The notes: generated by a model not told the origin, from the letters alone. DNA of 64,000 bases from an uncultured Acetobacteraceae bacterium (GCA_943912335.1 CALTUD010000004.1:74115-138114); one strand, 5' to 3'. Counted from the stretch's first letter, positions 12,985 through 47,680 are shown. Numbers and translations are program-made.

Positions 12985-13947
12985 TCAGACCCAAAACGCG
13001 ATGCGCGGACGGGCGCGCACGAACACACGCCACGACACGAGGCACAGCAGCGCGCTGTAGACCAGCGCCGCGACCCAGGTGAACGGCGTCGGCATCGTGC
13101 CCAGCAGCGGCGCGCGCACCACTTCGAGCAGGGAGTCGAACGGGTTGATCGGCAGCCACCAGGAGCGCTGGCCGAGCTGGGATGGCTTCCAGATCACGGG
13201 GGTGAGGTAATAGGCGATCTGCAGCAGGCTGCCGATGATCGGCGGCACGTCGCGGAAGCGGGCGCAGATCGCACCCAGCAGGTAGCAGGAGGCGGCACCG
13301 TCCAGCAGCCACAAGGCAAGGCCGGGCAGGCACAGAAAGCCTGTCAGCCCCGGCCATTGCCCGAAGATGGCGAACACCACCACCGGCACCACCACGTTGT
13401 GGCCCAGAACGATGACGTTGCGCACCACGGTCCGGATCACCTGCACGGTGAACGGCATGCGCATGGAGCGGATGGTCTGCTCGGCATCGATGAAGCTGTT
13501 GCAGGCTTCGCCGGCCAGGCCACCGATGCCGGCCTGCCAGAGGATCAGGGACAGAGCGAGGTAGGGCAGGTATTCCGCCAGGCCGATATGGAAAAGGGCA
13601 GCGTAGAGAAAGCCCATCGAGCCGACCATCACCGCACTGGACAAGGTCAGCCAGAGCGGACCCAGAGCCGATCCGCGATAGCGCAGCTTGATGTCGAGCC
13701 AGCCCAGGGTGAAGGCGAGGCGCCAGAGGGCGAGTCCGTCGCGAAGATCGGCGCGCGCGGCGAGGCCGCGTGTGCGGCGTCCGAGCCGGGCGTCGATCAG
13801 CATCTCTGGCATGGAATCGTGCGCGGCGCCGGCCAGGGCGGTCGCGGAGCCGGGGGATTCGACCGCCGTCACGGCCGCGTCGATCGGTCCGGCCGCATCG
13901 CGGTCCGGCTCGGGCGAAGGCTCCGTCACGGATGGCAGCGCGCTCAT
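12985..13947 (-). CDS. ABC-2 type transporter permease (Wzm/KpsM-like)
   Basis: Six predicted TM segments, typical ABC-2 N-terminal LWRLAFTLGWLDIKLRYRGSALGPLW. Start chosen at Met-57 of the ORF (13947); 13812 is an alternative. Confidence 0.7.
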   Translation of the reverse strand: MSALPSVTEPSPEPDRDAAGPIDAAVTAVESPGSATALAGAAHDSMPEMLIDARLGRRTRGLAARADLRDGLALWRLAFTLGWLDIKLRYRGSALGPLWLTLSSAVMVGSMGFLYAALFHIGLAEYLPYLALSLILWQAGIGGLAGEACNSFIDAEQTIRSMRMPFTVQVIRTVVRNVIVLGHNVVVPVVVFAIFGQWPGLTGFLCLPGLALWLLDGAASCYLLGAICARFRDVPPIIGSLLQIAYYLTPVIWKPSQLGQRSWWLPINPFDSLLEVVRAPLLGTMPTPFTWVAALVYSALLCLVSWRVFVRARPRIAFWV

Positions 13948-14148
13948 GGGCGCGGCGTAGCCGATCCGCTGTTGCCCGGCAATGGATTGCGCGGGGTGGG
14001 TGCGGGACGAACCGTGACGTTCCTGCGACGGATCTGGTCTTAAATTCGCCCAACAGATGGTTGATGTTGCGGCAGAGATGGAGCCACTGTAAGGCGGAGG
14101 AACGGTTTTCTCCACCTGAGCCTTGGCTGCCGGAGTTCAAGCAAGCCG

Positions 14149-15633
14149 ATGTCGCGACCTGCCTGCCGACCCACGTTCCGATCCGCCGCGGCGGCGAAAC
14201 GCGACCGCTCCGGCGTGGCGCGTGCAGCCTGCTCCGCCGTTCTACTGGCGCTTCTGGCTGCTTGCGCGGAAACCCCGTCGCAGCCGTCCATGATGCCGGT
14301 GGCGCAGGAAGCGGCGAAATACCGGGCGCATGCGCGCTCCTATTACGCGCCGCCCGGTCCGCCCGACGATCCATGGGGGCCGTATATTGAGGAAGCCTCG
14401 CGCAAGTTCGACGTGCCCGACACCTGGGTGCGCGCCGTGATCGGCCGCGAGTCGGGCGGTCAGCAGTTCAGCCGCAACGGTACGCTGATCACCTCGGGTG
14501 CCGGCGCCATGGGTCTGATGCAGCTGATGGCGCCGACCTATGACGATCTGCGCGCCCAGTATGGGCTTGGTGACGATCCGTTCGAGCCGCACGACAACAT
14601 CATGGCCGGCACGGCCTATATCCGCCAGATGTACGACATCTATGGCGCGCCCGGCTTTCTGGCCGCCTACAACACCGGGCCCGGGCGTCTGGACGACTTC
14701 CTGACCAAGAACCGGCCCTTGCCGCGCGAAACCCGGCAATACGTGGCCATCATCGGCCCGCAGATCGCCGGGATCTGGCCGAACAGCCGTTCGCAGGCCG
14801 ACCTGATGATCGCTGCTCATTCCGGCAGCGACGTGCAGTACGCGTCGGCTCAGACGCAGGACGAGACCAAGTCGGTCAGGCTGGCCTGGACCCGCCGGCG
14901 CGATCTGCAGCAGCCGAACGACCAGCCGATGCAGGTGGCCGAAGCGCCGGCGACGACCGGTGGCGCGGCACCGTCCTATATCAAGGACTGGCGCAGCATG
15001 AAGGCGCAGTCGCCTGCACAGGCCGCCGTTGCTACGCCGGTGGCACTCGCCGCCAACAGCCCGTCTTCCGTGAGCGCCGCCTGGGCCAGCCGCGGCATCG
15101 TGTCCCGCCCCGCCGCTTCGGTGGCGAGCGCACCGGTGCGTAACTGGACGCTGGCGCCGACCGACCAGCAGCACCCGGCCGCAATCGCCAGCGGTGATTC
15201 CAGCGGCCCGGATACGGCGGTCGCTCCCGTGCGGCTCGCCTCCGCTGAAATGCCGGCGCAGGACGACTCCACCGACACGCAGGCGGCGGCGCCTGCCGCG
15301 CGCAAGCCGCATTTCCAGCTCATCCGCCGCGCCATGGCCGAGCCGGCTCCGCTTCTGCGCGATGCGGGGCGCGGCCCCCGCAACTGGTCGGTGCAGGTCG
15401 GTGCCTTCAACACCCAGGCGCAGGCCAGTCAGGCTGCCGGCGCCGCGCGCTCGCGTGCACCAAGCCTGTCCGGCGCACAGGCTGAGATCGCCGGCGTCAA
15501 GCAGGGCCGCAACGGCCGGGTTTATCGCGCGCGCTTGACCGGCCTGTCACGCAATGATGCGATGGCGGCCTGCCAGAAGCTGTCGCGTGGCAGCGGTGCT
15601 TGCATGGTGGTGTCGCCCGATGCGCGTTCGTAA
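14149..15633 (+). CDS. Lytic transglycosylase (SLT domain) lipoprotein with C-terminal SPOR domain
   Basis: Lipobox LLALLAAC; SLT motifs GRESGG...GAMGLMQLM...AYNTGPG; C-terminal SPOR-like WSVQVGAF...YRARLTGL. Ala/Pro/Gln-rich linker between the domains. Confidence 0.8.
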   Translation: MSRPACRPTFRSAAAAKRDRSGVARAACSAVLLALLAACAETPSQPSMMPVAQEAAKYRAHARSYYAPPGPPDDPWGPYIEEASRKFDVPDTWVRAVIGRESGGQQFSRNGTLITSGAGAMGLMQLMAPTYDDLRAQYGLGDDPFEPHDNIMAGTAYIRQMYDIYGAPGFLAAYNTGPGRLDDFLTKNRPLPRETRQYVAIIGPQIAGIWPNSRSQADLMIAAHSGSDVQYASAQTQDETKSVRLAWTRRRDLQQPNDQPMQVAEAPATTGGAAPSYIKDWRSMKAQSPAQAAVATPVALAANSPSSVSAAWASRGIVSRPAASVASAPVRNWTLAPTDQQHPAAIASGDSSGPDTAVAPVRLASAEMPAQDDSTDTQAAAPAARKPHFQLIRRAMAEPAPLLRDAGRGPRNWSVQVGAFNTQAQASQAAGAARSRAPSLSGAQAEIAGVKQGRNGRVYRARLTGLSRNDAMAACQKLSRGSGACMVVSPDARS

Positions 15634-16162
15634 TCTCGTCGCCGCCGCGATCGGCGCGGTTGGACTTGCGGCAAGCGCGATGCCGGCCGAGGCGGCGCTT
15701 CCAGTCGGAGCCAAGGCACCGGATTTCACCATTGAGGCCACGCTGGCCGGCAAGCCGTTCCAGGCGTCGCTCGCCGCCATGCTGAAACACGGTCCGGTGG
15801 TGCTCTATTTCTATCCGAAGGCCTTCACCTCCGGCTGCACCGTGGAAGCGCACGACTTTGCCGAGGCTATGCCGCAGTTCAAGGCGTTGGGCGCGCAAGT
15901 GCTGGGGGTGTCGGAGGACGACATCGCCACGCTGAACAGGTTCTCGGTCAGCGAATGCCAAAGCGCATTTGCCGTGGGTGCGGATGATCACGGCAAGGTC
16001 GCCAAAAGCTACGACGCCACCTTGCCCCTGGTCGGCCTGTCCAACCGTACCTCCTATGCGATCGCGCCGGACGGTCGGGTCCTGGCCGCCTATACGGCGA
16101 TGGACCCGGATGGGCACGTCAGCCACATGCTCGACGCTTTGAAGCAGTTCAAGGCGCGCTGA
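15620..16162 (+). CDS. Secreted peroxiredoxin (Bcp/AhpC-TSA family thiol peroxidase)
   Basis: FTSGCTVEAHDF peroxidatic Cys motif. Signal peptide MRVRNLVAAAIGAVGLAASAMPAEA. ATG at 15620 overlaps the upstream stop by 14 nt. Confidence 0.8.
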   Translation: MRVRNLVAAAIGAVGLAASAMPAEAALPVGAKAPDFTIEATLAGKPFQASLAAMLKHGPVVLYFYPKAFTSGCTVEAHDFAEAMPQFKALGAQVLGVSEDDIATLNRFSVSECQSAFAVGADDHGKVAKSYDATLPLVGLSNRTSYAIAPDGRVLAAYTAMDPDGHVSHMLDALKQFKAR

Positions 16163-16510
16163 CACGTCACCATCAGGACGGGTGCGCTTCGCCCTCCTGC
16201 TCGCCGCCATCCTCCGCGTTTTGAATGTCCCGGGCTGACAGGACGGTCTTCTGTCGCGGTACGATGGGCTTCACAGCAATTCGCTGCGTCGCACGCTGAG
16301 CGGGCCGCGCGTCCGGTGGCGTGACCGGGGCGGCGGGAAGCACCGACGGAAGCAGGGTGTGATCGATGGTCTGCATAGCACGATCCCCAATCTAGAATTC
16401 CGTTGTGGAATATGGGGGGCTGCCATGCCGTCGGCATCGGGCGGTCCGATCACCAAAGCGGGATCAGACAGGAGACCCGGCCGGGTGAAAGCCGGCCGGG
16501 TGGACTGCTT

Positions 16511-16699
16511 TTAGTGGGTGGCCAGGCCGGTGTTGCCGGTCACGGCACTCTGTGTGGCGGTGGCGCCGCGCGACACGTCATGGCCGAGCGCGGAGGCGTC
16601 CTGGCCCATGCCGCTGACGGTGTTGCAGGCAGACAGGCCGACCGTCGCGACGGCCAGCAGGCCGACGGTGGCGAGAGCGCGGCAAGAAGCGGTGAACAT
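16511..16699 (-). CDS. Entericidin EcnA/EcnB-family small lipoprotein
   Basis: 62 aa. Lipobox LSAC followed by NTVSGMGQDASALGHDVSRGA, resembling the entericidin core (CNTARGFGEDIKHLGNSIS). Confidence 0.65.
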   Translation of the reverse strand: MFTASCRALATVGLLAVATVGLSACNTVSGMGQDASALGHDVSRGATATQSAVTGNTGLATH

Positions 16700-16879
16700 G
16701 AAAGGCTGCCTCCAGTTGTGAGTTTGTGTCGAAACGGCATCGGCGCCACCGAGGTTCCCGAGAGGCGGGGATCGCCGTCTTCTGTTGCGAAAAAGTGACG
16801 GCTGTGTCCCGGATACGCGAATTGCGCTCCAGCGATGTTGCAGTTAGGAACAAGTCGCAACTGAGTGGGTCATCCAAAC

Positions 16880-17896
16880 ATGCGCGTCTCGTTCCGGTCC
16901 AGGCTGTCCGCCTCCGTCCTGGCTATCTCCTTCGGCCTCGCCGGTGCCTCCACCGCCGCCCAGGCTGAAACGCTGACGCTCTACAGCGCCCAGCACAAGC
17001 AGATGGTCGATCAGGTGGTTGCCGCCTTCACCAAGGCGACCGGCATCGCCGTGCAGACCCGCTTCGGCGAGGCGCCGGAGATCGCGTCGCAGATCGTGCA
17101 GGAAGGCGCCGCGTCTCCGGCCGATGTCTACTTCACCGAGAACTCGCCCGAGCTGGTGTTGCTGGACGAAAAAGGCCTGCTGTCGCCCGTGGAGAAGTCG
17201 ACCCTGGCCCAGGTGCCGTCGCGCTTCAACGCCGAGACCGGCGACTGGCTCGGCGTGCTGGCGCGCGAGAACGTGCTCTGCTTCGACCCGCATCTGATCA
17301 AGGAAAGCCAGCTTCCTGCCTCGCTGCTCGATCTGGCCAAGCCGGAATGGAAGGGCAAGGTCGCGATCGCGCCGGCCGATGCCGATTTTCTGCCGCTGGT
17401 GGAAGCGATCGTGAAGCTGAAGGGCCGTCCGGCGGCGCTGGACTGGCTGAAGGCGATGAAGACCAACGCGCAGATCTTCGATGACGACGAGGGCGTGGTC
17501 GCCGCCGTGGATCGCGGCGCGGTCGCGACGGGCATCATCAACAACTACTACTGGGCTCGTCTGCACCAGGAGAAGGGCAAAGCGACCGTCGCCAAGATGC
17601 ATCATTTCGCCGGGCACGATGTCGGTGCGCTGATCAACGTGTCGGGTGCCGCTGTGCTGAAATCCTCCAAGCACCAGGACGCGGCGCAGCGCTTCCTCGC
17701 TTTCATGGTGAGCAAGCCGATGCAGACCGCGCTCGCCAGCGGCGACGTCGATTTCGAGTATCCGCTGGCGGCGGGGGTCAAGGCCAACCCGATCCTGAAG
17801 CCGTTCGACCAGCTCCAGCCGCCGGCGATCTCGATCAAGGATCTGGGCGACGATCAGGACGCGGCGAAGCTGCTGCGCGAGGCCGGTCTGCTCTGA
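16880..17896 (+). CDS. fbpA: Fe(3+) ABC transporter periplasmic substrate-binding protein
   Basis: Signal peptide, then ETLTLYSAQHKQMVDQVVAAFTKATGI...; FbpA/AfuA family. Confidence 0.85.
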   Translation: MRVSFRSRLSASVLAISFGLAGASTAAQAETLTLYSAQHKQMVDQVVAAFTKATGIAVQTRFGEAPEIASQIVQEGAASPADVYFTENSPELVLLDEKGLLSPVEKSTLAQVPSRFNAETGDWLGVLARENVLCFDPHLIKESQLPASLLDLAKPEWKGKVAIAPADADFLPLVEAIVKLKGRPAALDWLKAMKTNAQIFDDDEGVVAAVDRGAVATGIINNYYWARLHQEKGKATVAKMHHFAGHDVGALINVSGAAVLKSSKHQDAAQRFLAFMVSKPMQTALASGDVDFEYPLAAGVKANPILKPFDQLQPPAISIKDLGDDQDAAKLLREAGLL

Positions 17897-37725: not shown

Positions 37726-40026
<2,301 letters not shown>

Positions 40027-40058: not shown

Positions 40059-40096
40059 GTTTGTTTCATCCGCGAACGACAGCGGATGAAACAAAC
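40059..40096 (+). repeat. Perfect 15-bp inverted repeat (GTTTGTTTCATCCGC, 8-nt loop, GCGGATGAAACAAAC) between the maeB stop and the ssuC ATG
   Basis: Read directly. The 3' arm ends 1 nt before the ATG at 40097 and would contain the Shine-Dalgarno region. Confidence 0.6.
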
Positions 40097-40966
40097 ATGC
40101 TCGACAGGGTCTCCAGCCCGGCGGCGGTGATTGGCCGGCCTGTGTCGCGCCCGGCGCCGGTTCGGTCGGCGAGACGCAGCCCGGCGGGGGTGCGGAAGAC
40201 CGCCCGTCCGCTGCCCTTCCGCCGTTTCTGGTCCATCCTGCTGATCCTGGCGGTTTGGCAGGCGGCGTCCTCCGCAGGGCTGGTCTCGCCGGAAACCCTC
40301 GCCTCGCCGCTGCGCATTGCCCGCACCGCGTTCGACCTCACCCGCAGCGGTGTTCTGCCGCAGAATCTGCTCGTCTCCCTCGGCCGCGCCGGCAGCGGAC
40401 TGGCCATCGCCATCGGCGGCGGCATCGCTCTGGCCTTGGTCGCTGGCCTGTCGCGTATCGGCGAGGATGTGGTCGATGCGCCGATGCAGATGCTCCGCAC
40501 CCTGCCGGCTCTGGCTCTGGTGCCGCTGTTTATTCTCTGGTTCGGCATCGGCGAGACGCCCAAGATCGCCCTGGTGGCGCTGGGCGCGCTGATCCCGGTC
40601 TATCTCAATCTGTTCAAGGGCATCCGCGCGATCGACCCGAAACTGCTGGAGATGGGCCGCACGCTCGGCCTGTCCCGTTCGGCCGTGATCCGCAACATCG
40701 TCCTGCCCGGGGCATTGCCCGATCTGCTCACGGGCCTACGCTTTTCCGTCGGCATTTCCTGGCTGATGCTGGTGGTCGCCGAGCAGGTGAACGCGTCCAC
40801 GGGCATCGGCCATATGATGATGGACGCGCAGGATTTCCTCCGCACCGACATCATCTTGGTCGGGCTGCTGGTCTATGCGCTGCTCGGTCTGCTCAGCGAT
40901 CTCGCGGTGCGGATGCTGGAACGGCGCCTGCTGCGCTGGCGCCCGGTGGCGGGAGGCGTACGATGA
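40097..40966 (+). CDS. ssuC: Aliphatic sulfonate/nitrate/taurine-family ABC transporter permease
   Basis: Six-TM ABC permease with EAA-like loop. Genomic context with ssuB/ssuD/ssuA. A TTG alternative start at 40061 was not used. Confidence 0.75.
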   Translation: MLDRVSSPAAVIGRPVSRPAPVRSARRSPAGVRKTARPLPFRRFWSILLILAVWQAASSAGLVSPETLASPLRIARTAFDLTRSGVLPQNLLVSLGRAGSGLAIAIGGGIALALVAGLSRIGEDVVDAPMQMLRTLPALALVPLFILWFGIGETPKIALVALGALIPVYLNLFKGIRAIDPKLLEMGRTLGLSRSAVIRNIVLPGALPDLLTGLRFSVGISWLMLVVAEQVNASTGIGHMMMDAQDFLRTDIILVGLLVYALLGLLSDLAVRMLERRLLRWRPVAGGVR

Positions 40967-41664
40967 GCGGCGGCGTTTTCGTCGAGGGCCTCAGCCGCGC
41001 CTTCGGCGGCAATCGCGTCCTGGACGGGCTCGATCTGCAGATCCGTCCCGGCGAGTTCGTCGCCCTTTTGGGCCGCTCCGGCTCCGGCAAGACCACGCTT
41101 CTGCGCACTCTGGCCGGACTCGATCCTGTGGAGGAGGGCACCGTCTCCGTGCCGGAACAGGTCGCGGTGGTGTTCCAGGAGAGTCGACTGCTGCCGTGGA
41201 AGCGGGTGCGCGACAATGTGATGCTGGGCCTGGACGGCACGGATGCACGCGCCCGCGCCGAAGCGGCCTTGGGCGAAGTCGGTTTATCGCATCGGCTGGA
41301 CGCCTGGCCGCTTACCCTCTCGGGCGGCGAGGCTCAGCGCGTCGGCATCGCGCGCGCTCTGGTCCGTGCGCCAGAGTTTCTGATGCTGGACGAGCCCTTT
41401 GCCAGTCTCGACGCGCTCACCCGCCTACGCATGCACGCGATGGTGGAGCGCCTTTGGCGCGCCCATGGCTGCGCCGTACTGTTGGTGACGCATGATGTGG
41501 ACGAGGCGCTCACGCTCGGCGATCGCGCCGTGGTGCTGGATCGCGGCCGGATCAGAACCGTGCTGCCGTTGGAGATGGAGCGCCCACGTCGACACGACGC
41601 CGCTGATTTCGCGCGAGGGCGTCGCGTACTGCTCGACGCGCTGGACGTGGGCGAGGCGGTTTAG
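40963..41664 (+). CDS. ssuB: Aliphatic sulfonate-family ABC transporter ATP-binding protein
   Basis: Walker A GRSGSGKTTLL, signature LSGGEAQRVGIARAL, Walker B LMLDEPFASLD. ATGA overlap with ssuC. Confidence 0.85.
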   Translation: MSGGVFVEGLSRAFGGNRVLDGLDLQIRPGEFVALLGRSGSGKTTLLRTLAGLDPVEEGTVSVPEQVAVVFQESRLLPWKRVRDNVMLGLDGTDARARAEAALGEVGLSHRLDAWPLTLSGGEAQRVGIARALVRAPEFLMLDEPFASLDALTRLRMHAMVERLWRAHGCAVLLVTHDVDEALTLGDRAVVLDRGRIRTVLPLEMERPRRHDAADFARGRRVLLDALDVGEAV

Positions 41665-41786
41665 CGCCGGTCGGACCGGCGCGCGCGCACCGGAATCGCC
41701 TGCGGCCTCGGCCGCGCCGCTAGAACGAGCGGGATCATCGCCAGCAGGGCGGCGGCAACGAACGCGACCTGTTCCAACTGCTGCAT
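41661..41786 (-). CDS. Possible small (41-aa) membrane peptide ORF, stop-to-stop overlap with ssuB
   Basis: Hand translation gives MQQLEQVAFVAAALLAMIPLVLAARPRPQAIPVRARRSDRR. GGGAAG lies about 5 nt upstream of the ATG. Below the size cut-off of the ORF track, so very tentative. Confidence 0.2.
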   Translation of the reverse strand: MQQLEQVAFVAAALLAMIPLVLAARPRPQAIPVRARRSDRR

Positions 41787-41789
41787 GAT

Positions 41790-44700
41790 CGAATCTTCCC
41801 CATCTCGGAACACCTGCCGAACAGATTGCCCTAACGCGCCAGCCGATCAAGGGTTGTTTTCGGCATGAGACCGTTACGCAATACAGATGCGGACGGTTTA
41901 TCGTTACGGCTCATATGCGGGATTGCGAAGGGCGGGTGGATGATGCATCCGCCGTTCACTGTAATCGGCAAATCCGGCATGACCTTGGACCTCGAAACGT
42001 GATAGAGGGACTTTCAGCAGCGAGATTATTCTGGTTCACTGTCTGGCGCGACGTGAAAATATCCAGCCTCGCGTAATCTAGTCAAGACTGTAGATACTGC
42101 TTTAGCTCCAGGATCCGTTTTGTTCAGGTCCCGCTTTGCTTTGATATAAGCCACAATCTTCATCAGAATAAGTCTTTCGCTATTCGTGTTTACCTCTTGT
42201 CTATACTGCCTCATGCTAGTGTCTAGCATAAACCTCAGAAATAAAGAGCGCTTCTCAGTCTTGCTCAAAATCGCATGGGCAACATCGCCCCAGTTTTTGG
42301 GCTTAGATCTCAAAATCATGGCAAAATTGATGTACTGCTCAAAGCCTGACAATAATAGGTTCTGAGACATATATACAAAGACTTCGGCCAGTTTCTTTGA
42401 TCCCAGGACTTCAGTTGATTGATTTACTATTGAGGTAGGTATTACCGAAGCAACAAGTCCTGCTCGGTGCTGGGCATCAAATTCTATATCTGGATCATAC
42501 CTAATGCGATTTACGAAATTCATTTCGTTCCACGTAAATCTTTTCTGCTCGGCAATCAGAGGAGAAAATATAAAACCTATTCTCACGACAATCTTGGAAG
42601 CTTCTACGATTGCTTGGATAGCATTGACCTTCAGGCTACCTTCGACGTCGACAGCGTTGTTAATTGCGGTCATTAGTACTGATCTACTAAGTGTGACACT
42701 CTTTTCCCGTTCCTTGAAGTCCATTATAATAGTTGACTGTAATTCTGTCTTGCGTTCGGCTTCAATTGACCTCTTTAATTTGTCAATCTCGGGTATTGCA
42801 TCAGGACCTTGTTCGAGACTCTCAGTAATATCTTTCCAAATGGCTGCCTCGACCTCTTCAGAGTAAGTCCATTCTAACCTATCATACGGGTTTAAATCCC
42901 TAATATTATACTGATTATAAAATTCATCGATGGCGTCATTCAAACCTTTTGTCAGATTCTTCACAAGCTCTGTATTGTCTGCCGACAGACCACTAATAAC
43001 CTCGATAAGCCCTTCAACTTGCATGTGATCGTTATTTGCAAGGAATTCTTTCAAATCCTTCGGTCGATTTGCTACATATCTGCCTAGGAGATAGCTATAG
43101 AATAGCCTATAGCGAAATATATACACTGCATTGGACTTTTGAAGAACGCGACTGGCTGCTAAATCATTTAAGAGCGCAGACCAATCAAAGTTTATCAGAG
43201 TTCTAGACATGTATTTTGAGCAGAAAACTGCCCATTCAGTTTCGGTGAAGCTGACCATATCTTTTTTGTACAATGAATTTACAAATGAACTCAAAACATC
43301 AAGTTTGTTGTCTACGTTAAAGGAATCTCTGTAAGCATCGCCCGGCCTCCGTAACAGCTCTCTGATATATTTATCTATTATCTGAAGCCTACTAAGCGGA
43401 GCAAAGTCGCCTTCTCTATGAAGAATTGACAAGTACATTATTACATTTGTTGGAGTTAAAGGAATGCAAAGTTGCAGTAGGTCATTATATACCTTTTCTA
43501 CAACCCCCGATATATAGTCTTGATCGGCTGAGCCTGACATCTGGCGAGCTAATGTTCTAATGCCAGATCTATTTATGTTGCTGAGACGAAGAGAAATATA
43601 ATCTGCCTCATATGCATCGTCGTCATCTTGCACAGAAAAACTTTCAGTTTTAGTAAGTAATATAATTCTCTTAAACCGCTTTATCCCACGAATCTCTTTG
43701 AGAAGCCTCTCGTGATTAACACCGTCAAAGCCATCTAGTATGATGACTTCTTCTTTTATAGAGTCTGTAGAATTATAGCCAAGTTCCGATAGCAAGCGCT
43801 TTTGATAATTTGGAAGACTGTTTGCCTCCCTAAATATAGTTAAATGGCCAGATGTAGATAGTTGATTGGCTAAACGGCGACCTAATGTTGTCAATCCATA
43901 TTCGTGTGGAGCATGAATGACAAAGGACTTGTCGGAGACGACGATATCGTCGACGTTTAATGCATCAGGTTCTGATTCAAAGTCAGTTTCCAGCAGGGCA
44001 TTTGATGCAATTAGTCGAGGTTCGACGTAAAGAAGCTTATTCGCATAACCAACAAAAAGGTTTTGCGCCCACGGCTGTGGCTCAGAGTATATATCAACAC
44101 TCTCTTTTTCTATATCTTTGACAATACTCTCTACTGCACTATTCTCACCGTTAGATTTACGTGCTGGCATTTTTCGCAGCAGGTCTATCAGTTCGGAATG
44201 ATCTTGGAGGTTGCCGCTTTCATCCTTTTTGATACAGTAGAAGATTGGTCGGACTTTGTACTTACGCGAGAAACTGCGTCGCATTGTCAGTGATACCGGT
44301 TCCTCATCAGATCGGCCAATGAATGCAAAATGTCGATCATCGGAAGCTAGGTCACGTAAAGTCTCTTCCAGCCCTCTAGTAAGGAAAGGATCCTTGAAGC
44401 CGAAGCCAACTACAATAAGTCTTTGTGTACGAAAGAGGCCCTGTAGGAAGTTTACATTCTCTCTTACACCATAAAATCTGTTATAATCCTTTCCGGTAAA
44501 TATCATCTCCTCCGGAGCTGATGGAACCCCATGCCAATGCAGTATTGGTGGCGCCGAAACACTCAGGCTTTGCCCCTGAGTCCATCTGGATAGCTCGAAC
44601 CTCTCAGAACTACGGTGGGACTGGGGTAAGCTACTGAAGTAACGTACGTAAGCATTTGATAGGCCAGGATCATAGTTGAGAGTTATAAAACCTTGAAATG

Positions 44701-45250
44701 GAATTGCCATCAGTGATTCGTGCGCAACTGTACAGAGATCTGGCTTATTGAAGTAACTCGACAAAAGTGTACGAAACTTGTCAGTAAGTAGTGCCTCTTC
44801 CAGGCTGTCAGCAACATCCAACGGATCGTCTGCCATTTGTTGGAGTAGTGATGCAGCATCGTTCGAGTCTATGGCTCCGCTATCTTTTGCATGACTTATA
44901 ATGTTGTGAAGAATACCACCCCAAGTTGGTATCTGGGGAGCACTAGTGCCAGCGCCGGTAAATGCTAGAGCGTTATTAGACTGAATTGCCGCACATGCAT
45001 CTTGAAAGGCCGAACAATTGCCGGGGTATATATCCTCGCGCAACAGGCGCTTCAGGGCTTCATCCATGACGCTATCCCATACAGAAGTAGCTAAATAGGT
45101 TTGCTGAATGAGCAAGGGCGGCAACTCTCGCCTCCCGGCTCCACGTGATTTGTGACAATAGCATCATAACGATTCGCCATCTACGTGGCACGCGGGAAGC
45201 GAGCGATCGCCCTGCGTCAAAGCATATACAAAAGCGTCCCCCAACCCCTA
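41790..45250. other. Compositionally foreign AT-rich segment (about 35-40% G+C by eye against 65-70% flanks) inserted between the convergent 3' ends of ssuCB and ssuD; carries one large gene. No integrase, tRNA or flanking direct repeats seen.
   Basis: Abrupt GC drop is obvious in the raw sequence from ~42.0 to 45.12 kb, with transitional flanks. Codon usage of the enclosed ORF is AT-biased, unlike all neighbours. Confidence 0.75.
42026..45124 (-). CDS. Large (1032-aa) SIR2-like (sirtuin/NADase, SIR2_2-type) domain protein with extended C-terminal region; candidate single-gene anti-phage defence protein (DSR / SIR2-STAND-like)
   Basis: N-terminal SIR2 motifs: LAFTGAGTSAPQIPTWGGIL (GAG.S..P.W), FITLNYDPGL (TTNYD-type with catalytic Asn), ILHWHGV (HG with catalytic His), LIVVGFGFKDPFL. 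Downstream: FVIHAPHEYGLTTLGRRLA, IILDGFDGV, RIILLTKTE, then about 500 aa of helical sequence. TTG start at 45122-45124 with GGGAGG SD; the first ATG is at 45067. Confidence 0.8.
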   Translation of the reverse strand: MPPLLIQQTYLATSVWDSVMDEALKRLLREDIYPGNCSAFQDACAAIQSNNALAFTGAGTSAPQIPTWGGILHNIISHAKDSGAIDSNDAASLLQQMADDPLDVADSLEEALLTDKFRTLLSSYFNKPDLCTVAHESLMAIPFQGFITLNYDPGLSNAYVRYFSSLPQSHRSSERFELSRWTQGQSLSVSAPPILHWHGVPSAPEEMIFTGKDYNRFYGVRENVNFLQGLFRTQRLIVVGFGFKDPFLTRGLEETLRDLASDDRHFAFIGRSDEEPVSLTMRRSFSRKYKVRPIFYCIKKDESGNLQDHSELIDLLRKMPARKSNGENSAVESIVKDIEKESVDIYSEPQPWAQNLFVGYANKLLYVEPRLIASNALLETDFESEPDALNVDDIVVSDKSFVIHAPHEYGLTTLGRRLANQLSTSGHLTIFREANSLPNYQKRLLSELGYNSTDSIKEEVIILDGFDGVNHERLLKEIRGIKRFKRIILLTKTESFSVQDDDDAYEADYISLRLSNINRSGIRTLARQMSGSADQDYISGVVEKVYNDLLQLCIPLTPTNVIMYLSILHREGDFAPLSRLQIIDKYIRELLRRPGDAYRDSFNVDNKLDVLSSFVNSLYKKDMVSFTETEWAVFCSKYMSRTLINFDWSALLNDLAASRVLQKSNAVYIFRYRLFYSYLLGRYVANRPKDLKEFLANNDHMQVEGLIEVISGLSADNTELVKNLTKGLNDAIDEFYNQYNIRDLNPYDRLEWTYSEEVEAAIWKDITESLEQGPDAIPEIDKLKRSIEAERKTELQSTIIMDFKEREKSVTLSRSVLMTAINNAVDVEGSLKVNAIQAIVEASKIVVRIGFIFSPLIAEQKRFTWNEMNFVNRIRYDPDIEFDAQHRAGLVASVIPTSIVNQSTEVLGSKKLAEVFVYMSQNLLLSGFEQYINFAMILRSKPKNWGDVAHAILSKTEKRSLFLRFMLDTSMRQYRQEVNTNSERLILMKIVAYIKAKRDLNKTDPGAKAVSTVLTRLREAGYFHVAPDSEPE

Positions 45251-46459
45251 CCCCCGCCCCTCATGCGTCGGCGCCCCCACGTTCGCGATCATCTCCCCGA
45301 ACGGCCCGCCATGGTGCGCCGGCCCATAGCTGTTCCCCGTGGTCGCCCGCAGAGGCAGCTTGGGGAACACCAGCTCGGCGAAGCGGTAGCATTCCTCCAG
45401 ATGCGGGTAGCCGCTCAGGATGAAGCGGTCGATGCCCAGCGCCATGTATTCCTTCATGCGCGCAGCGACCTCGTCCGGGTTGCCCACGAGAGCGGTTCCG
45501 GCGCCGCCACGCACGAGACCGACCCCGGCCCAGAGATTGGGCGACACCACCAGATTGTCGCGGCCGCCTTTGTGCAGTTCGGCCATCCGTTGCTGGCCCA
45601 CGCTGTCGAATTTCGCGAACGCGGCCTGGGCCTTGGCGATGTCGGCCTCGTCCAGATGCCGGATCAGCGAGTCCGCCGCCGCCCAGGCTTCTTCCGAGGT
45701 TTCGCGCACGATCACATGCAGGCGGATGCCGAAGCTGAGCGTGCGCCCGCGCGCGGCGGCCAGTGCCCGCACGGCGTCGATCTTCTCTTTCACCGCCGCG
45801 GGCGGCTCGCCCCAGGTCAGGTAGACATCCACATGCTCGGCCGCGACTTCCTGGCCGACGCCGGACGAGCCGCCGAAATACAAAGGCGGGTAGGGGCGCT
45901 GCGCCGGCGGAAACAGCAGCTTGCCGCCCTTCGAGCGTAGGTGCCGCCCCTCGAAATCCACGGTGTCGCCGCGCATCAGCCGGCGCCACACCTCCAGATA
46001 TTCGGCGGTGGCCTCGTAGCGCGACGCGTGGTCGAGGAACACGCCGTCTCCGGCCAACTCGGTCGGGTCGCCGCCCGTCACCACGTTCACCAGCAGGCGC
46101 CCGTTGCTCAGCCGGTCGAACGTCGCCGCCATGCGCGCGGTCATGGACGGCTCGCTCAGTCCGGGACGCACCGCGACCAGGAAGCGCACGCGCTGCGTCA
46201 GCGGGATCATCGACGACGCTACGACCCAACTGTCCTCGCAGCTTTTCCCGGTCGGCAACAGCATGCCGAAATAGCCGAGTTCATCGGCGGCGCGGGCGAT
46301 CTGGCTCAGATAGTTCAGCGTCACATGGCGCGCGCCGATCTGCGAGCCGAGATAACGCCCGTCGCCATGGGTGGGCAGGAACCAGAGCACGTCGCATTCC
46401 GTGGCGCCGCCGGAGGAGGCGAGGGGCCTGTGATCCACGGGAAGGATGGTGTCGGGCAT
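45248..46459 (-). CDS. ssuD: FMNH2-dependent alkanesulfonate monooxygenase (LLM-class flavin-dependent oxidoreductase)
   Basis: Luciferase-like monooxygenase motifs. Start at Met-31 of the ORF (46457-46459). Adjacent to ssuA/ssuCB. Confidence 0.85.
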
Positions 46460-46576
46460 GAGCACGCTCCTGCGGCGGCAGACCGTAAAGAACGATCGTT
46501 CGTAGTGATTGACGCCGAGGAGACTGGACCGCAATCGTGGATAATGCAAAGCACGTGGTCTCGATGGAGTCCGCCC

Positions 46577-47515
46577 ATGCTTTCACGACGCAACCTTCTC
46601 GGCGCCGTTCCGGTTCTTCTGACCGCGGGCGCCGCGCTCGCCGCCGGTGCGCCGCGCACCATCCGGATCGGCTATCAGCGCTACGGCACGTTGATCCTGC
46701 TGAAGCACACCGGATTGCTGGAGAAGGCGCTAGCCGGCACCAACGTGTCCGTTGCCTGGAGCGAGTTCGCCGCCGGCCCACAGCTTCTTCAGGCGCTCAG
46801 TGCCGGCGCGGTGGATTTCGGTATCACCGGCGATGCGCCGCCGATCTTCGCCCAGGCCACCAGCAACCAGATCGTCTATGTCGGGCATGAGCCGGTCGCG
46901 CCGTTCGGCGAGGCGATCATCGTGCCGGAATCGAGTCCGATCCGCGATGTGGCCGGCCTCAAGGGCAAGCAGGTGGCGCTCAACCGCGCGTCGAACGTGC
47001 ATTGGCTGCTGCTCGCCGCGCTGACCAAGGCCGGGCTGACCATGGCCGACATTCAGCCGGTGTTCCTGGTGCCCGGCGCCGCGCGTCCGGCCTTCGACAG
47101 CGGCCGCATCGATGCCTGGGCGATCTGGGACCCGTATCTCTCCGCCGTTCAGGCGGCCAAACCCACACGCGTGCTCACCTGGGCCGATGGCGTGGTCGGC
47201 AACCGGCAGTTCTTCCTGGCCGAGCGCGGTTTCGCCGCGAAGAACCCGGATCTGATCCCGATCCTGCTGCAGCAGATCGCCGCGGCGGATGCATGGAGCG
47301 AGGCACATAAGGCCGAGGCAAGCCAGTATCTCGCCACCGATACCGGCCTGCCTCTGCCCGTGGTGCGCAAGGCGCTGGACCGGCTCACGTACGGCGTCCA
47401 GCCGATGACGCCGGACGTGGTGGCCGAGCAACAGCGCATCGCGGACGCGTTCCTGGCGCAGCATCTTCTGCCCGGAAAGATCGTGGTGGCGGATGCCGTG
47501 TGGAAAGCGCCTTGA
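46577..47515 (+). CDS. ssuA: Aliphatic sulfonate ABC transporter substrate-binding protein with Tat signal
   Basis: [25 protein letters not shown] twin-arginine signal; NMT1/SsuA-TauA-like SBP fold. Alternative ATG at 46544. Confidence 0.8.
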
Positions 47516-47680
47516 TGAACTGAAGCGGGAGGGTCTTCTTTTTCTGAAGAAAAAGAAGCAAAAAGGCTTCTATCCGTTTGGTTGATTGCTGATCGATTGA
47601 CTCATTACCAAACGGACAAAAGTTCTTTGGTTCTTTCTTTCAAGAAAGAACAACTCTTACTTTTTCTCCGAACCACTCCT
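47516..47680. repeat. AT-rich intergenic region with three hairpins (CTTCTTTTTC-tgaa-GAAAAAGAAG; CCGTTTGGT...ACCAAACGG; GTTCTTTC...GAAAGAAC followed by a T-run on the minus strand); probable convergent terminators
   Basis: Inverted repeats read directly. Lies between ssuA (+) and the SDR gene (-). Confidence 0.45.

What the first reader, a model, noticed from the sequence alone, without database searches (positions are those of the whole stretch)
41790..45250. AT-rich foreign island inserted inside the sulfonate (ssu) locus
A ~3.4-kb stretch drops to roughly 35-40% G+C in a ~68% G+C replicon. The transition is visible by eye: runs such as ttattctggttcactgtctgg... and tgataccggttcctcatcagatcgg. 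It sits exactly between the convergent 3' ends of ssuCB (stop 41664) and ssuD (stop 45248), splitting a locus that is normally contiguous. It carries a single 3.1-kb gene. I see no integrase, transposase, tRNA or flanking direct repeats, so the mobilisation mechanism is not evident. The only local structure is an imperfect inverted repeat CCACGTGAT...ATCTACGTGG in the 120-nt spacer just upstream of the gene.
Basis: seen in the sequence. Interest (0 to 1): 0.85.

Follow-up and report, generated by a model that had tools for sequence, protein, structure and literature searches.

The report
Foreign SIR2-NLR-like immune gene island
The AT-rich stretch is real foreign DNA carrying a single gene for a probable anti-virus "suicide" receptor (an NAD-destroying SIR2 enzyme fused to an NLR-like switch), sitting in a genomic slot that related bacteria fill with other defence or toxin genes; it is a rare, untested variant of a known kind of bacterial immune protein.

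Summary
Window 41,850-45,150 runs at 37-50% G+C against 66.8 ± 2.5% elsewhere (lowest 1-kb window z = -11.6). It holds one intact gene, 42026-45124 (-), with GC3 0.40 against 0.80-0.88 in its neighbours. The gene lies exactly between the stop codons of ssuB (41664) and ssuD (45248).

The gene encodes a ~1,013-1,032-aa protein with four parts:
- A ThsA/DSR2-type SIR2 NADase domain with its catalytic Asn and His intact.
- A winged-helix unit of the "nSTAND4" type.
- An all-helical C-terminal domain.

The family is rare; the nearest relative is 46% identical. It is AT-rich in every GC-rich alphaproteobacterial host examined and is always a solo gene, often beside integrase, resolvase or prophage ends. 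Its C-terminal scaffold also occurs behind metallophosphatase, kinase and protease heads. It is distantly related to DS-8, a validated anti-phage protein. The Walker-A lysine is missing across the clade.

Relatives never have ssuB and ssuD directly tail-to-tail. The slot holds a RES/Xre toxin-antitoxin pair, a 5.7-kb gene block or, in the nearest relative, an Avs2-like gene.

Verdict: a horizontally acquired defence gene in a variable hotspot, and a new variant of a known kind. Its function is inferred, not tested.

The parts
41665..45247 (.). Variable slot between the ssuB and ssuD stop codons. It is 3,583 bp with no homology to syntenic relatives. The low-GC part runs from about 41,760 to about 45,200.
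   Evidence: Alignments to L002, L003, L004, L007, L011 and L016 lose homology at the two stop codons. No DNA match was found in the plasmid or phage collections.
42026..45124 (-). SIR2-STAND (NLR-like) gene. It is 1,032 aa from TTG 45124, which is preceded by GGGAGG 6 nt upstream. The database copy P0001 starts at ATG 45067 (1,013 aa). The stop codon is 42026-42028.
44168..45067 (-). SIR2 NADase-type effector domain (aa 1-300, P0001 numbering). GAGTS loop G38/G40; catalytic N131 = 44675-44677; H179 = 44531-44533.
43571..44035 (-). Nucleotide-binding-domain-like alpha/beta fold (aa 345-499). The degenerate P-loop is A-P-H-E-Y-G-L-T-T; the lysine position is L392 = 43892-43894. The Walker-B-like motif is VIILD445 = 43733-43735.
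43070..43570 (-). Helical domain plus winged-helix domain (aa 500-666). It includes the conserved CIPLTPxN motif and the stretch matched by Pfam nSTAND_NTPase4 and NCBIfam DS8_antiphage.
   Evidence: Pfam PF24406 matches aa 627-680 of the 1,032-aa ORF at 22.7 bits, below its gathering score of 27. NCBIfam DS8 matches 602-690. BLASTP to the canonical-Walker-A plasmid relative gives 7e-10 over this region.
42029..43069 (-). All-helical C-terminal domain (aa 667-1013), the presumed sensor.
   Evidence: Model. No informative fold or sequence match was found. It is conserved behind four different N-terminal heads.
45141..45191 (-).
   Evidence: The consensus scan scores 9 of 12. The repeat is not above chance and is not conserved upstream of homologues.
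45231..45247 (.). Native tail downstream of the ssuD stop that is still homologous to the nearest relative. It places the right junction between about 45,190 and 45,231.
   Evidence: Local alignment with L001.
40963..41664 (+). Context: SsuB-like ABC ATPase, preceded by the SsuC-like permease at 40061-40966 and maeB at 37726-40026. This is native flank.
   Evidence: Pfam and NCBIfam best hits are SsuB/SsuC, below their equivalog cut-offs. The region is 78-85% identical and syntenic in relatives.
45248..46459 (-). Context: SsuD alkanesulfonate monooxygenase, with the SsuA-family binding protein divergent at about 46541-47515 (+). This is native flank.
   Evidence: NCBIfam gives 649 bits against a cut-off of 510. 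SsuA_fam gives 235 against 163.5. SsuD is 93% identical to E. trunci.

Best explanation
**What it is.** The island is a horizontally acquired single-gene immune cassette. It lies in a recombination-prone gap between two convergent core genes (ssuB and ssuD) of an Acetobacteraceae chromosome.

**The product.** The gene encodes an NLR-like receptor with four parts:
- an N-terminal SIR2 NAD+-hydrolase effector;
- a NACHT/NOD-type STAND oligomerisation module;
- a winged helix;
- a helical C-terminal sensor.

**Proposed mechanism (inferred).**
1. In uninfected cells the protein is held inactive.
2. A phage-derived trigger bound by the C-terminal domain drives NOD-mediated self-assembly.
3. Assembly brings SIR2 domains together and switches on NAD+ cleavage.
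4. NAD+ collapse stops the infected cell and aborts phage replication.

**The P-loop.** Every member of the clade lacks the Walker-A lysine. Assembly is therefore probably not driven by canonical ATP binding or hydrolysis (inferred).

**How it arrived.** Arrival was most likely by homologous recombination through the conserved flanks, or by illegitimate insertion after transfer on an integrative element or prophage. It was not by a self-encoded recombinase (inferred).

**Shown versus inferred.** Shown: the foreign composition, the position, the domain architecture, the catalytic residues, effector swapping in the family, the mobile contexts of homologues, and the variability of the slot. Inferred: NADase activity, the anti-phage role, the trigger, and the insertion route.
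For: - **Composition.** Gene GC3 is 0.40 against 0.80-0.88 in neighbours, z = -11.6.
- **Slot.** Homology to relatives ends at both stop codons. The slot holds RES/Xre TA, other genes or an Avs2-like gene in relatives, and never this gene.
- **SIR2 domain.** Pfam SIR2_2 3.5e-16. The profile hits the solved NADases FAM118B, ThsA, DSR2 and KomC. N131 and H179 align with ThsA N112 and H152, and N131 is invariant, H179 nearly invariant, in the family.
- **Effector swapping.** The same C-terminal module occurs behind Metallophos (25 of 28), Pkinase and Trypsin heads, and behind DUF4062 on a plasmid.
- **Link to a validated system.** All 28 swapped relatives and the window protein hit the NCBIfam model of DS-8. 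DS-8 is a validated single-protein metallophosphatase-NACHT anti-phage system.
- **Homologue contexts.** Homologues are solo, AT-rich (0.42-0.51 against 0.62-0.65) and sit at a prophage end or beside integrase, resolvase or transposase remnants.
- **Mechanistic precedent.** EfAvs5 (SIR2-NOD-sensor) depletes NAD+ after filamentation (PMC11897194).
Against: - No experiment exists on this protein or on any SIR2-headed member of the family.
- No other defence gene lies next to it in the window.
- PADLOC matches only the SIR2 part (ThsA and LmuA models). No Avs, DSR or bNACHT model matches.
- The window protein's nSTAND_NTPase4 and DS8 matches are below the curated cut-offs (22.7 against 27; 40.6 against 790).
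- The Walker-A lysine is absent. The corresponding lysines are essential in EfAvs5 (K379A) and DS-8 (K375A). The NOD may therefore work differently or not at all.
- The trigger, the oligomeric state and the insertion mechanism are unknown.
- No same-species genome with an empty site was found.
Confidence: 0.7

Rival explanations
1. The protein is a conflict-system toxin that is not primarily anti-phage. It could be an NLR-like sensor aimed at plasmids or other mobile elements. Or it could be an addiction-type selfish gene that stabilises the DNA it rides on, filling the same niche as the RES/Xre toxin-antitoxin pair that relatives carry in this slot.
For: In five relatives the slot holds a RES/Xre TA module, a class whose toxins also attack NAD+ metabolism. 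Homologues sit on integrative elements and beside resolvase, ParA and T4SS fragments. The architecture alone cannot say what the sensor recognises.
Against: There is no antitoxin-like partner gene. The gene is solo in every context examined. The validated relatives of the scaffold and of the architecture (DS-8, Avs5) act against phages.
Confidence: 0.12
2. The gene is inert cargo. On this reading it is a recently transferred gene that is silenced or non-functional in this host. The lysine-less P-loop would mark a decayed NTPase, and the island would have no present role.
For: The Walker-A lysine is missing, while it is essential in Avs5 and DS-8. Strongly AT-rich DNA in a 67% G+C genome is a typical target for xenogeneic silencing (own knowledge). 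No neighbouring defence genes are present.
Against: A 1,013-codon ORF stays intact in 42% G+C DNA. The lysine-less motif, with E389 and G391 invariant, is conserved across the clade at 35-46% identity and behind four different effector heads. That indicates selection on a changed function rather than decay. The SIR2 catalytic residues are intact.
Confidence: 0.1
3. The protein is a housekeeping or regulatory STAND protein. It would be a MalT-like signal-transducing switch whose SIR2 domain deacylates or ADP-ribosylates proteins, perhaps connected with the adjacent sulfonate genes.
Against: The composition is foreign, and the gene is absent from all 80 related ssu loci. Homologues have no association with ssu genes. 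The SIR2 domain groups with defence NADases (ThsA, DSR2, KomC, FAM118B), not with deacetylases. Swapping in phosphoesterase, kinase and protease heads is a conflict-system signature.
Confidence: 0.05
4. The island is an assembly or contamination artefact, a chimeric join of AT-rich foreign reads into a GC-rich contig.
For: The composition switches abruptly. Only one database copy of the exact protein exists. The encoding contig could not be retrieved.
Against: The junctions fall precisely in the intergenic gap between two intact convergent genes. The gene is complete, with promoter-like and Shine-Dalgarno-like signals. Six independent homologue loci show the same picture of an AT-rich solo gene inside GC-rich alphaproteobacterial DNA.
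Confidence: 0.02

Closest known systems
Avs5 / AVAST type 5 (e.g. EfAvs5, SIR2-STAND)
DS-8 (DefensePredictor system; metallophosphatase-NACHT, WP_032203427.1)
   Same: It is a single-protein anti-phage system of about 1,000 aa with an effector-NACHT-C-terminal layout. The NCBIfam DS8 model matches the window protein at the same coordinates (602-690 to 602-690, E 6.9e-11). It also matches all 28 effector-swapped relatives of the family (best 1.6e-57).
   Different: The effector is a metallophosphatase, not SIR2. All scores are far below the equivalog cut-off of 790 bits. DS-8 has a lysine (K375) whose mutation abolishes defence, whereas this clade has none at the P-loop. I could not obtain the DS-8 sequence for a residue-level alignment.
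ThsA, DSR2 and KomC (defence SIR2 NADases) and human FAM118B
   Different: Those proteins use SLOG, HEAT-like or partner-protein sensors and have no STAND module. Only the first ~265-300 residues are comparable.
Inactive or degenerate STAND modules (iSTAND, iSTAND2; KpAvs8)
   Same: These are STAND scaffolds in conflict systems whose NTP-binding motifs have eroded yet which remain conserved (PMC8195603; PMC13581612).
   Different: iSTAND modules belong to multi-gene ternary systems with MoxR-vWA partners. This is a solo gene. No sequence relationship to iSTAND or Avs8 was tested here.
Defence hotspots between conserved core genes (cargo exchange without dedicated mobility genes)
   Same: The core flanks are the same while the conflict cargo differs between lineages. 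The cargo is RES/Xre TA, an Avs2-like gene or SIR2-STAND. No integrase or att site is present.
   Different: The slot is very small, with one or two genes. The evidence rests on a handful of MAGs and one isolate genome, and no population-level sample of one species is available.

Membership tests
SIR2_2-type NAD+-hydrolase domain (ThsA/DSR2-like) | Match to Pfam PF13289 above its gathering score | tested here: met
   60 bits against a cut-off of 24.5, E 3.5e-16, aa 146-294 of the 1,032-aa ORF.
SIR2_2-type NAD+-hydrolase domain (ThsA/DSR2-like) | Catalytic Asn and His at the positions of BcThsA N112 and H152 | tested here: met
   N131 aligns with N112. That position is Ala in 8BTO, which I take to be the N112A mutant. 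H179 aligns with the ThsA 'MHG' His. N131 is invariant and H179 nearly invariant in 22 homologues.
SIR2_2-type NAD+-hydrolase domain (ThsA/DSR2-like) | NAD+ cleavage activity | not testable with these tools
   This needs a biochemical assay.
STAND / NLR-like NTPase | NBD-HD-WHD fold followed by a sensor domain | tested here: met
STAND / NLR-like NTPase | Canonical Walker A GxxxxGK[ST] | tested here: not met
   The motif is A-P-H-E-Y-G-L-T-T, with L, G, A or S at the lysine position. 64 of 65 clade members lack a canonical motif. A distant plasmid relative keeps GVKEAGKT.
STAND / NLR-like NTPase | Walker B hhhhD | tested here: met
   VIILD445 is present and D445 is invariant. The following residue is G, N or S rather than D or E.
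Pfam nSTAND_NTPase4 (PF24406) | Match above the gathering score of 27 bits | tested here: inconclusive
   The window protein scores 22.7 bits, E 1.1e-4. Fourteen of 28 effector-swapped relatives match at E <= 1e-3, best 1.4e-8. Several SIR2-headed homologues carry a precomputed PF24406 hit. The 58-position model covers the winged-helix region only.
Avs5 (AVAST type 5) | Match to curated Avs5 models, with a functional Walker-A lysine | tested here: not met
DS-8 (NCBIfam NF053861 equivalog) | Score of at least 790 bits, with a metallophosphatase head | tested here: not met
   The score is 40.6 bits, over aa 602-690 only. The head is SIR2. The protein is a distant scaffold relative, not a member.
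Integrase-mediated genomic island | Integrase or recombinase gene, a tRNA or other att site, and flanking direct repeats | tested here: not met
   No tRNA lies within 18 kb. No significant flanking repeats were found. Both flanks are core genes collinear with relatives. Only a 7-nt direct match (ACGTGAT at 41997 and 45143) brackets the gene.
Variable defence/conflict hotspot | The same core flanks with different conflict-related cargo in related genomes | tested here: met
   RES/Xre TA occurs in L003, L004, L007, L011 and L016. An Avs2-like gene follows ssuD in L001. SIR2-STAND occurs here. L002 carries non-defence genes.

The most novel reading that the evidence does not exclude
The gene represents an uncharacterised clade of NLR-like immune receptors that has lost the Walker-A lysine clade-wide while keeping an otherwise conserved NACHT-like fold. 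The clade has SIR2, metallophosphatase, kinase, protease and DUF4062 heads on one scaffold. On this reading, assembly and effector activation are ligand-driven and independent of canonical ATP binding. The C-terminal helical domain would recognise a phage component not covered by the known Avs families. The persistent AT-richness of the family in GC-rich alphaproteobacteria might reflect host silencing that keeps a toxic NADase in check.
Probability: 0.25. Interest if true: 0.65.

Novelty: new variant of a known kind. Interest (0 to 1): 0.42.

Why it matters
- **Diversity of bacterial NLR-like receptors.** If the protein is an active immune receptor, it adds a SIR2-armed branch to the recently validated DS-8 scaffold.
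- **A natural test case.** It would show whether an NLR-like switch can work without the P-loop lysine, which is essential in its characterised cousins Avs5 and DS-8. That bears on how nucleotide binding is coupled to assembly in NLRs generally.
- **Cargo exchange in small gaps.** The locus shows that a tiny gap between two convergent housekeeping genes can act as an exchange point for conflict genes (toxin-antitoxin, Avs2-like, SIR2-STAND) without any resident recombinase.
- **Annotation.** The result turns a 'hypothetical/SIR2 family protein' into a specific, testable defence candidate.

Tried and rejected
- **Remnants of the relatives' cargo.** tblastn for RES/Xre in the window found none.
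- **Flanking repeats.** Direct and inverted repeat searches gave only chance-level matches.
It is not above shuffles and is not conserved upstream of six homologues.
- **Small ORF.** The GC-rich 50-aa ORF at 41661-41813 (-) has no Pfam hit and is not conserved in any of the 93 loci held at the time. The short DNA matches seen are chance-level GC-rich words.
- **RNA.** The 3' spacer RNA fold is not special (z = -0.36). Rfam found no family in 41,400-45,500.
- **Terminators.** The consensus scan found nothing above background.
- **DNA-level similarity.** The island has no match in the plasmid or phage collections.
- **Source contig.** The contig of P0001 is not on record.
- **Same-species contigs.** A degenerate ssuB 3'-end pattern gave 0 hits in metagenomes.
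- **DS-8 sequence.** The accession is not in the collections. tblastn with a metallophosphatase-headed relative found only more distant plasmid relatives.
- **Foldseek afdb50.** The library was not available.
- **Literature.** A search for 'nSTAND4' found nothing relevant.
- **Family assignments considered and rejected.** DSR1/DSR2 and ThsA (only the SIR2 domain matches). Avs5 membership (see the membership test).
Full report
**1. The observation**

A sliding 300-bp profile shows G+C falling from 0.67-0.70 (41,400-41,850) to 0.37-0.47 (42,000-44,850), then recovering to 0.63-0.68 by 45,150-45,450. Outside the island, 1-kb windows average 0.668 (sd 0.025). The lowest inside value is 0.382 (z = -11.6), and nothing else in the 64 kb comes close.

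The segment contains one long ORF, 42026-45124 on the minus strand. Its GC3 is 0.398, against 0.80-0.88 for maeB, ssuC, ssuB and ssuD.

- SsuD passes the NCBIfam alkanesulfonate monooxygenase cut-off (649 against 510 bits).
- An SsuA-family binding protein lies divergent from ssuD.
- The two ABC components have SsuC and SsuB as best hits, though below the equivalog cut-offs.

ssuB ends at 41664 and the ssuD stop is at 45248-45250, with the two genes convergent.

No tRNA lies nearer than 63,448. There are no convincing flanking repeats. No Rfam family is present. The island has no DNA-level relative in the annotated plasmid or phage collections.

Its perfect arm is only 6 nt, which 55% of shuffles of that spacer equal or exceed. 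No comparable motif occurs upstream of six homologues. It overlaps a weak sigma-70-like site but cannot be called a feature.

**2. What the slot looks like in relatives**

I used SsuD to fetch 80 related loci. The host is an Acetobacteraceae bacterium, with SsuD 93% identical to Endosaccharibacter trunci.

- **L003, L004, L007, L016 (and partial L011).** These Acetobacteraceae MAGs keep the same maeB-ssuC-ssuB> <ssuD arrangement. They have about 1.0 kb between the two stop codons.
- **Cargo in those MAGs.** The 1 kb is GC-normal and encodes an Xre/DUF2384 antitoxin and a RES-domain toxin.
- **L002.** The gap is 5.7 kb of ordinary GC-normal genes: a phosphoesterase, a PAS histidine kinase, a LuxR-type regulator and a bicupin.
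- **E. trunci (L001).** The genome is collinear with the window from 56,743 down to the ssuD stop and then diverges completely. What follows is a lower-GC stretch with a 1,536-aa ORF. That ORF matches the NCBIfam Avs2 model over its full length (E 1.8e-195, 652 bits, cut-off 1000).

Multiple alignments show that homology to the window stops at the two stop codons. On the ssuD side, 17 nt beyond the stop are still shared with E. trunci.

No trace of the toxin-antitoxin pair remains in the window. None of the 80 loci has the window's gene after ssuD. The textbook co-directional ssuD-ssuC-ssuB order is seen only in distant taxa, whose SsuC and SsuB are 45-63% identical to the window's.

But it does not split a normally contiguous locus. 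The gap is a small variable slot that repeatedly holds conflict-type cargo.

**3. The gene product**

*SIR2 domain.* Pfam finds a SIR2_2 domain (E 3.5e-16) and a sub-threshold nSTAND_NTPase4 match. PADLOC matches only the SIR2 part. NCBIfam gives a weak partial match to 'DS8_antiphage'.

A profile of 22 homologues hits only SIR2 NADases among solved structures: FAM118B, ThsA, DSR2 and KomC. The match covers the first ~265 residues. Residue by residue, N131 aligns with BcThsA N112 and H179 with the ThsA catalytic His. N131 is invariant and H179 nearly invariant in the family.

*STAND module.* An AlphaFold2 model (mean pLDDT 80.3) shows this layout:
- SIR2 domain, aa 1-300;
- a disordered linker;
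- an alpha/beta domain, aa 345-499;
- a helical domain;
- a winged helix, about aa 609-666;
- an all-helical C-terminal domain.

The protein is thus an NLR-like SIR2-STAND receptor.

**4. A clade-wide oddity**

Where the P-loop should be (strand 381-386, loop, helix 392-405) the sequence reads A-P-H-E-Y-G-L-T-T. E389 and G391 are invariant, but the lysine position holds L, G, A or S in every aligned member. Of 65 clade members that could be anchored, 64 lack a canonical Walker A. Metallophosphatase-headed members show the same pattern. The Walker-B-like VIILD445 is invariant.

A more distant plasmid relative (Klebsiella and Bacillus, 869 aa) keeps GVKEAGKT at a comparable distance upstream of the shared helical/winged-helix region. 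BLASTP over that region gives 7e-10. This supports reading the motif as a degenerated Walker A.

The assignment rests on fold position and spacing, not on a residue-level alignment. Precedents exist: the iSTAND modules (PMC8195603) and the degenerate motifs of KpAvs8 (PMC13581612).

**5. The family and its relatives**

*Rarity.* In 5.8 billion protein clusters only about 30 relatives were found. The nearest is 46% identical and the exact protein occurs once. A full HMM scan of 1.84 billion representatives gave 530 hits at E <= 1e-30, including fragments and proteins that match only the SIR2 part.

*Effector swapping.* The C-terminal ~680-residue module also occurs behind other N-termini. Of 28 such proteins, 25 have a calcineurin-like metallophosphoesterase head, one a protein kinase and one a trypsin-like peptidase. 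A Chryseobacterium plasmid has a DUF4062 head. Effector swapping on a constant sensor-switch scaffold is typical of immune receptors.

*Link to DS-8.* All 28 match the NCBIfam DS8 model (best 1.6e-57). DS-8 comes from the DefensePredictor study (PMC13092281). It is a single-protein metallophosphatase-NACHT system from E. coli that protects against phage. Defence is lost in D52A, N84A and K375A mutants. The window protein is therefore a distant SIR2-armed relative of a validated scaffold. It is not a DS-8 member (40.6 bits against a 790 cut-off).

*Functional analogue.* Avs5 is the closest functional analogue. EfAvs5 is SIR2-NOD-sensor, forms filaments and depletes NAD+. Its NOD is described as an nSTAND3-type NOD, and its K379 is essential (PMC11897194).

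**6. How the family travels**

In every locus examined the homologue is a solo gene and markedly AT-rich relative to its GC-rich host (0.42-0.51 against 0.62-0.65). The contexts are:
- among housekeeping genes in Sphingomonas;
- beside a resolvase in Microvirga;
- at the end of a prophage in Salipiger;
- next to resolvase, ParA and T4SS fragments;
- in an integrase/RepB-primase/AlpA element;
- directly beside a tyrosine integrase at the end of an IMG/VR viral contig.

These contexts suggest phage- and integrative-element-borne spread. In the window nothing of the vehicle remains. Entry by recombination through the conserved flanks, or by illegitimate insertion, is therefore inferred and not shown. 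A 7-nt direct match (ACGTGAT at 41997 and 45143) brackets the gene but is too short to interpret.

**7. Mechanism, confidence and rivals**

The best-supported reading is an abortive-infection receptor. The C-terminal domain senses an invader component. The NOD-like module self-assembles. Clustered SIR2 domains then hydrolyse NAD+. My confidence by component:
- the segment is foreign: about 0.97;
- the SIR2-NLR-like architecture: about 0.95;
- an immune, NAD+-depleting role: about 0.7.

Rivals are listed separately with their evidence: an anti-plasmid or addiction role, inert or silenced cargo, a regulatory sirtuin-STAND, and an assembly artefact. The missing lysine is the main internal argument against a simple 'works like Avs5' model. 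Its clade-wide conservation argues for an altered mechanism rather than decay.

**8. Verdict**

The content is a new variant of a known kind: a SIR2-armed, lysine-less NACHT-like receptor related to the DS-8 scaffold. It sits in a small defence/toxin hotspot. This is a solid, testable defence candidate of moderate interest, not a categorically new element.

Noticed in passing
L001:11217-18100 (Endosaccharibacter trunci NZ_JAMSKV010000004.1): Directly after the ssuD stop the nearest relative carries a lower-GC stretch (0.59-0.65 against 0.70). It contains a 1,536-aa ORF (13159-17769) that matches the NCBIfam Avs2 model end to end (E 1.8e-195, below the equivalog cut-off). It also contains several small ORFs with no Pfam hit. 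Synteny with the window ends exactly at the ssuD stop.
   Followed up: partly
L003:2900-3930 (also L004, L007, L011, L016): A GC-normal type II RES/Xre toxin-antitoxin pair fills the ssuD-ssuB gap in five Acetobacteraceae MAGs. A palindrome (GATCAGATGrTAC...TAGTATCATCTGGA) lies upstream of the antitoxin gene and is probably its operator.
   Followed up: partly
window 45107-45124: The long ORF starts at TTG 45124, which has a strong Shine-Dalgarno-like GGGAGG 6 nt upstream. The database protein starts 19 codons later at ATG 45067, which has only a weak GGGA upstream. The true start is uncertain.
   Followed up: partly
window 41997-42003 and 45143-45149: The heptamer ACGTGAT occurs in direct orientation just past each end of the gene. 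There are 12 occurrences on both strands in the whole 64 kb. It is too short to call an att or target duplication.
   Followed up: partly
window 41661-41813 (-): A GC-rich 50-aa ORF with a hydrophobic core lies between the ssuB stop and the AT-rich DNA. It has no Pfam hit and no conservation in any related locus. The GC-rich 41665-41760 stretch also has no counterpart in relatives, so its origin (native or imported) is unresolved. A short GC palindrome, CCGGTCgGACCGG, follows the ssuB stop.
   Followed up: partly
window 47516-47680: The AT-rich intergenic spacer (GC about 0.4) between convergent ssuA and the next gene holds two near-perfect palindromes: CTTCTTTTTCtgaaGAAAAAGAAG and GTTCTTTCTTtcAAGAAAGAAC. 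They look like bidirectional terminators. The spacer is about 130 nt longer than in E. trunci.
   Followed up: no
window 45205-45247 (-): A G-rich tract, GGGGCGGGGGTAGGGGTTGGGGG, lies immediately after the ssuD stop codon and is partly conserved in E. trunci. Its function is unknown.
   Followed up: no
L081, L082, L083, L084, L086, L089: Every homologue whose context could be read is 12-23 percentage points lower in G+C than its alphaproteobacterial host, although the homologues are only 35-46% identical to the window protein. The low G+C seems to be a lasting property of the family and not only a mark of one recent transfer.
   Followed up: partly
L091-L093 (marine metagenome contigs): A metallophosphatase-headed member of the same scaffold (P0191, 1,023 aa, P-loop EYGGST) sits as a solo gene right after lepA. 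It was seen on more than 50 contigs, including TARA Oceans samples.
   Followed up: no
L084:2082-4426: Next to one homologue lies a two-gene unit: a 265-aa ABC_tran/AAA_21-type ATPase plus a 516-aa protein with no Pfam hit. A GIY-YIG gene is also nearby. This may be another defence system.
   Followed up: no
L094 (Klebsiella grimontii plasmid pNY3A 338154-340763; similar in Bacillus cereus-group plasmids): An 869-aa metallophosphoesterase-STAND protein with a canonical Walker A (GVKEAGKT) is a distant relative of the scaffold. The tblastn match statistics for the Klebsiella and Bacillus plasmid copies are nearly identical (same query span, ~23% identity to the query).
   Followed up: no
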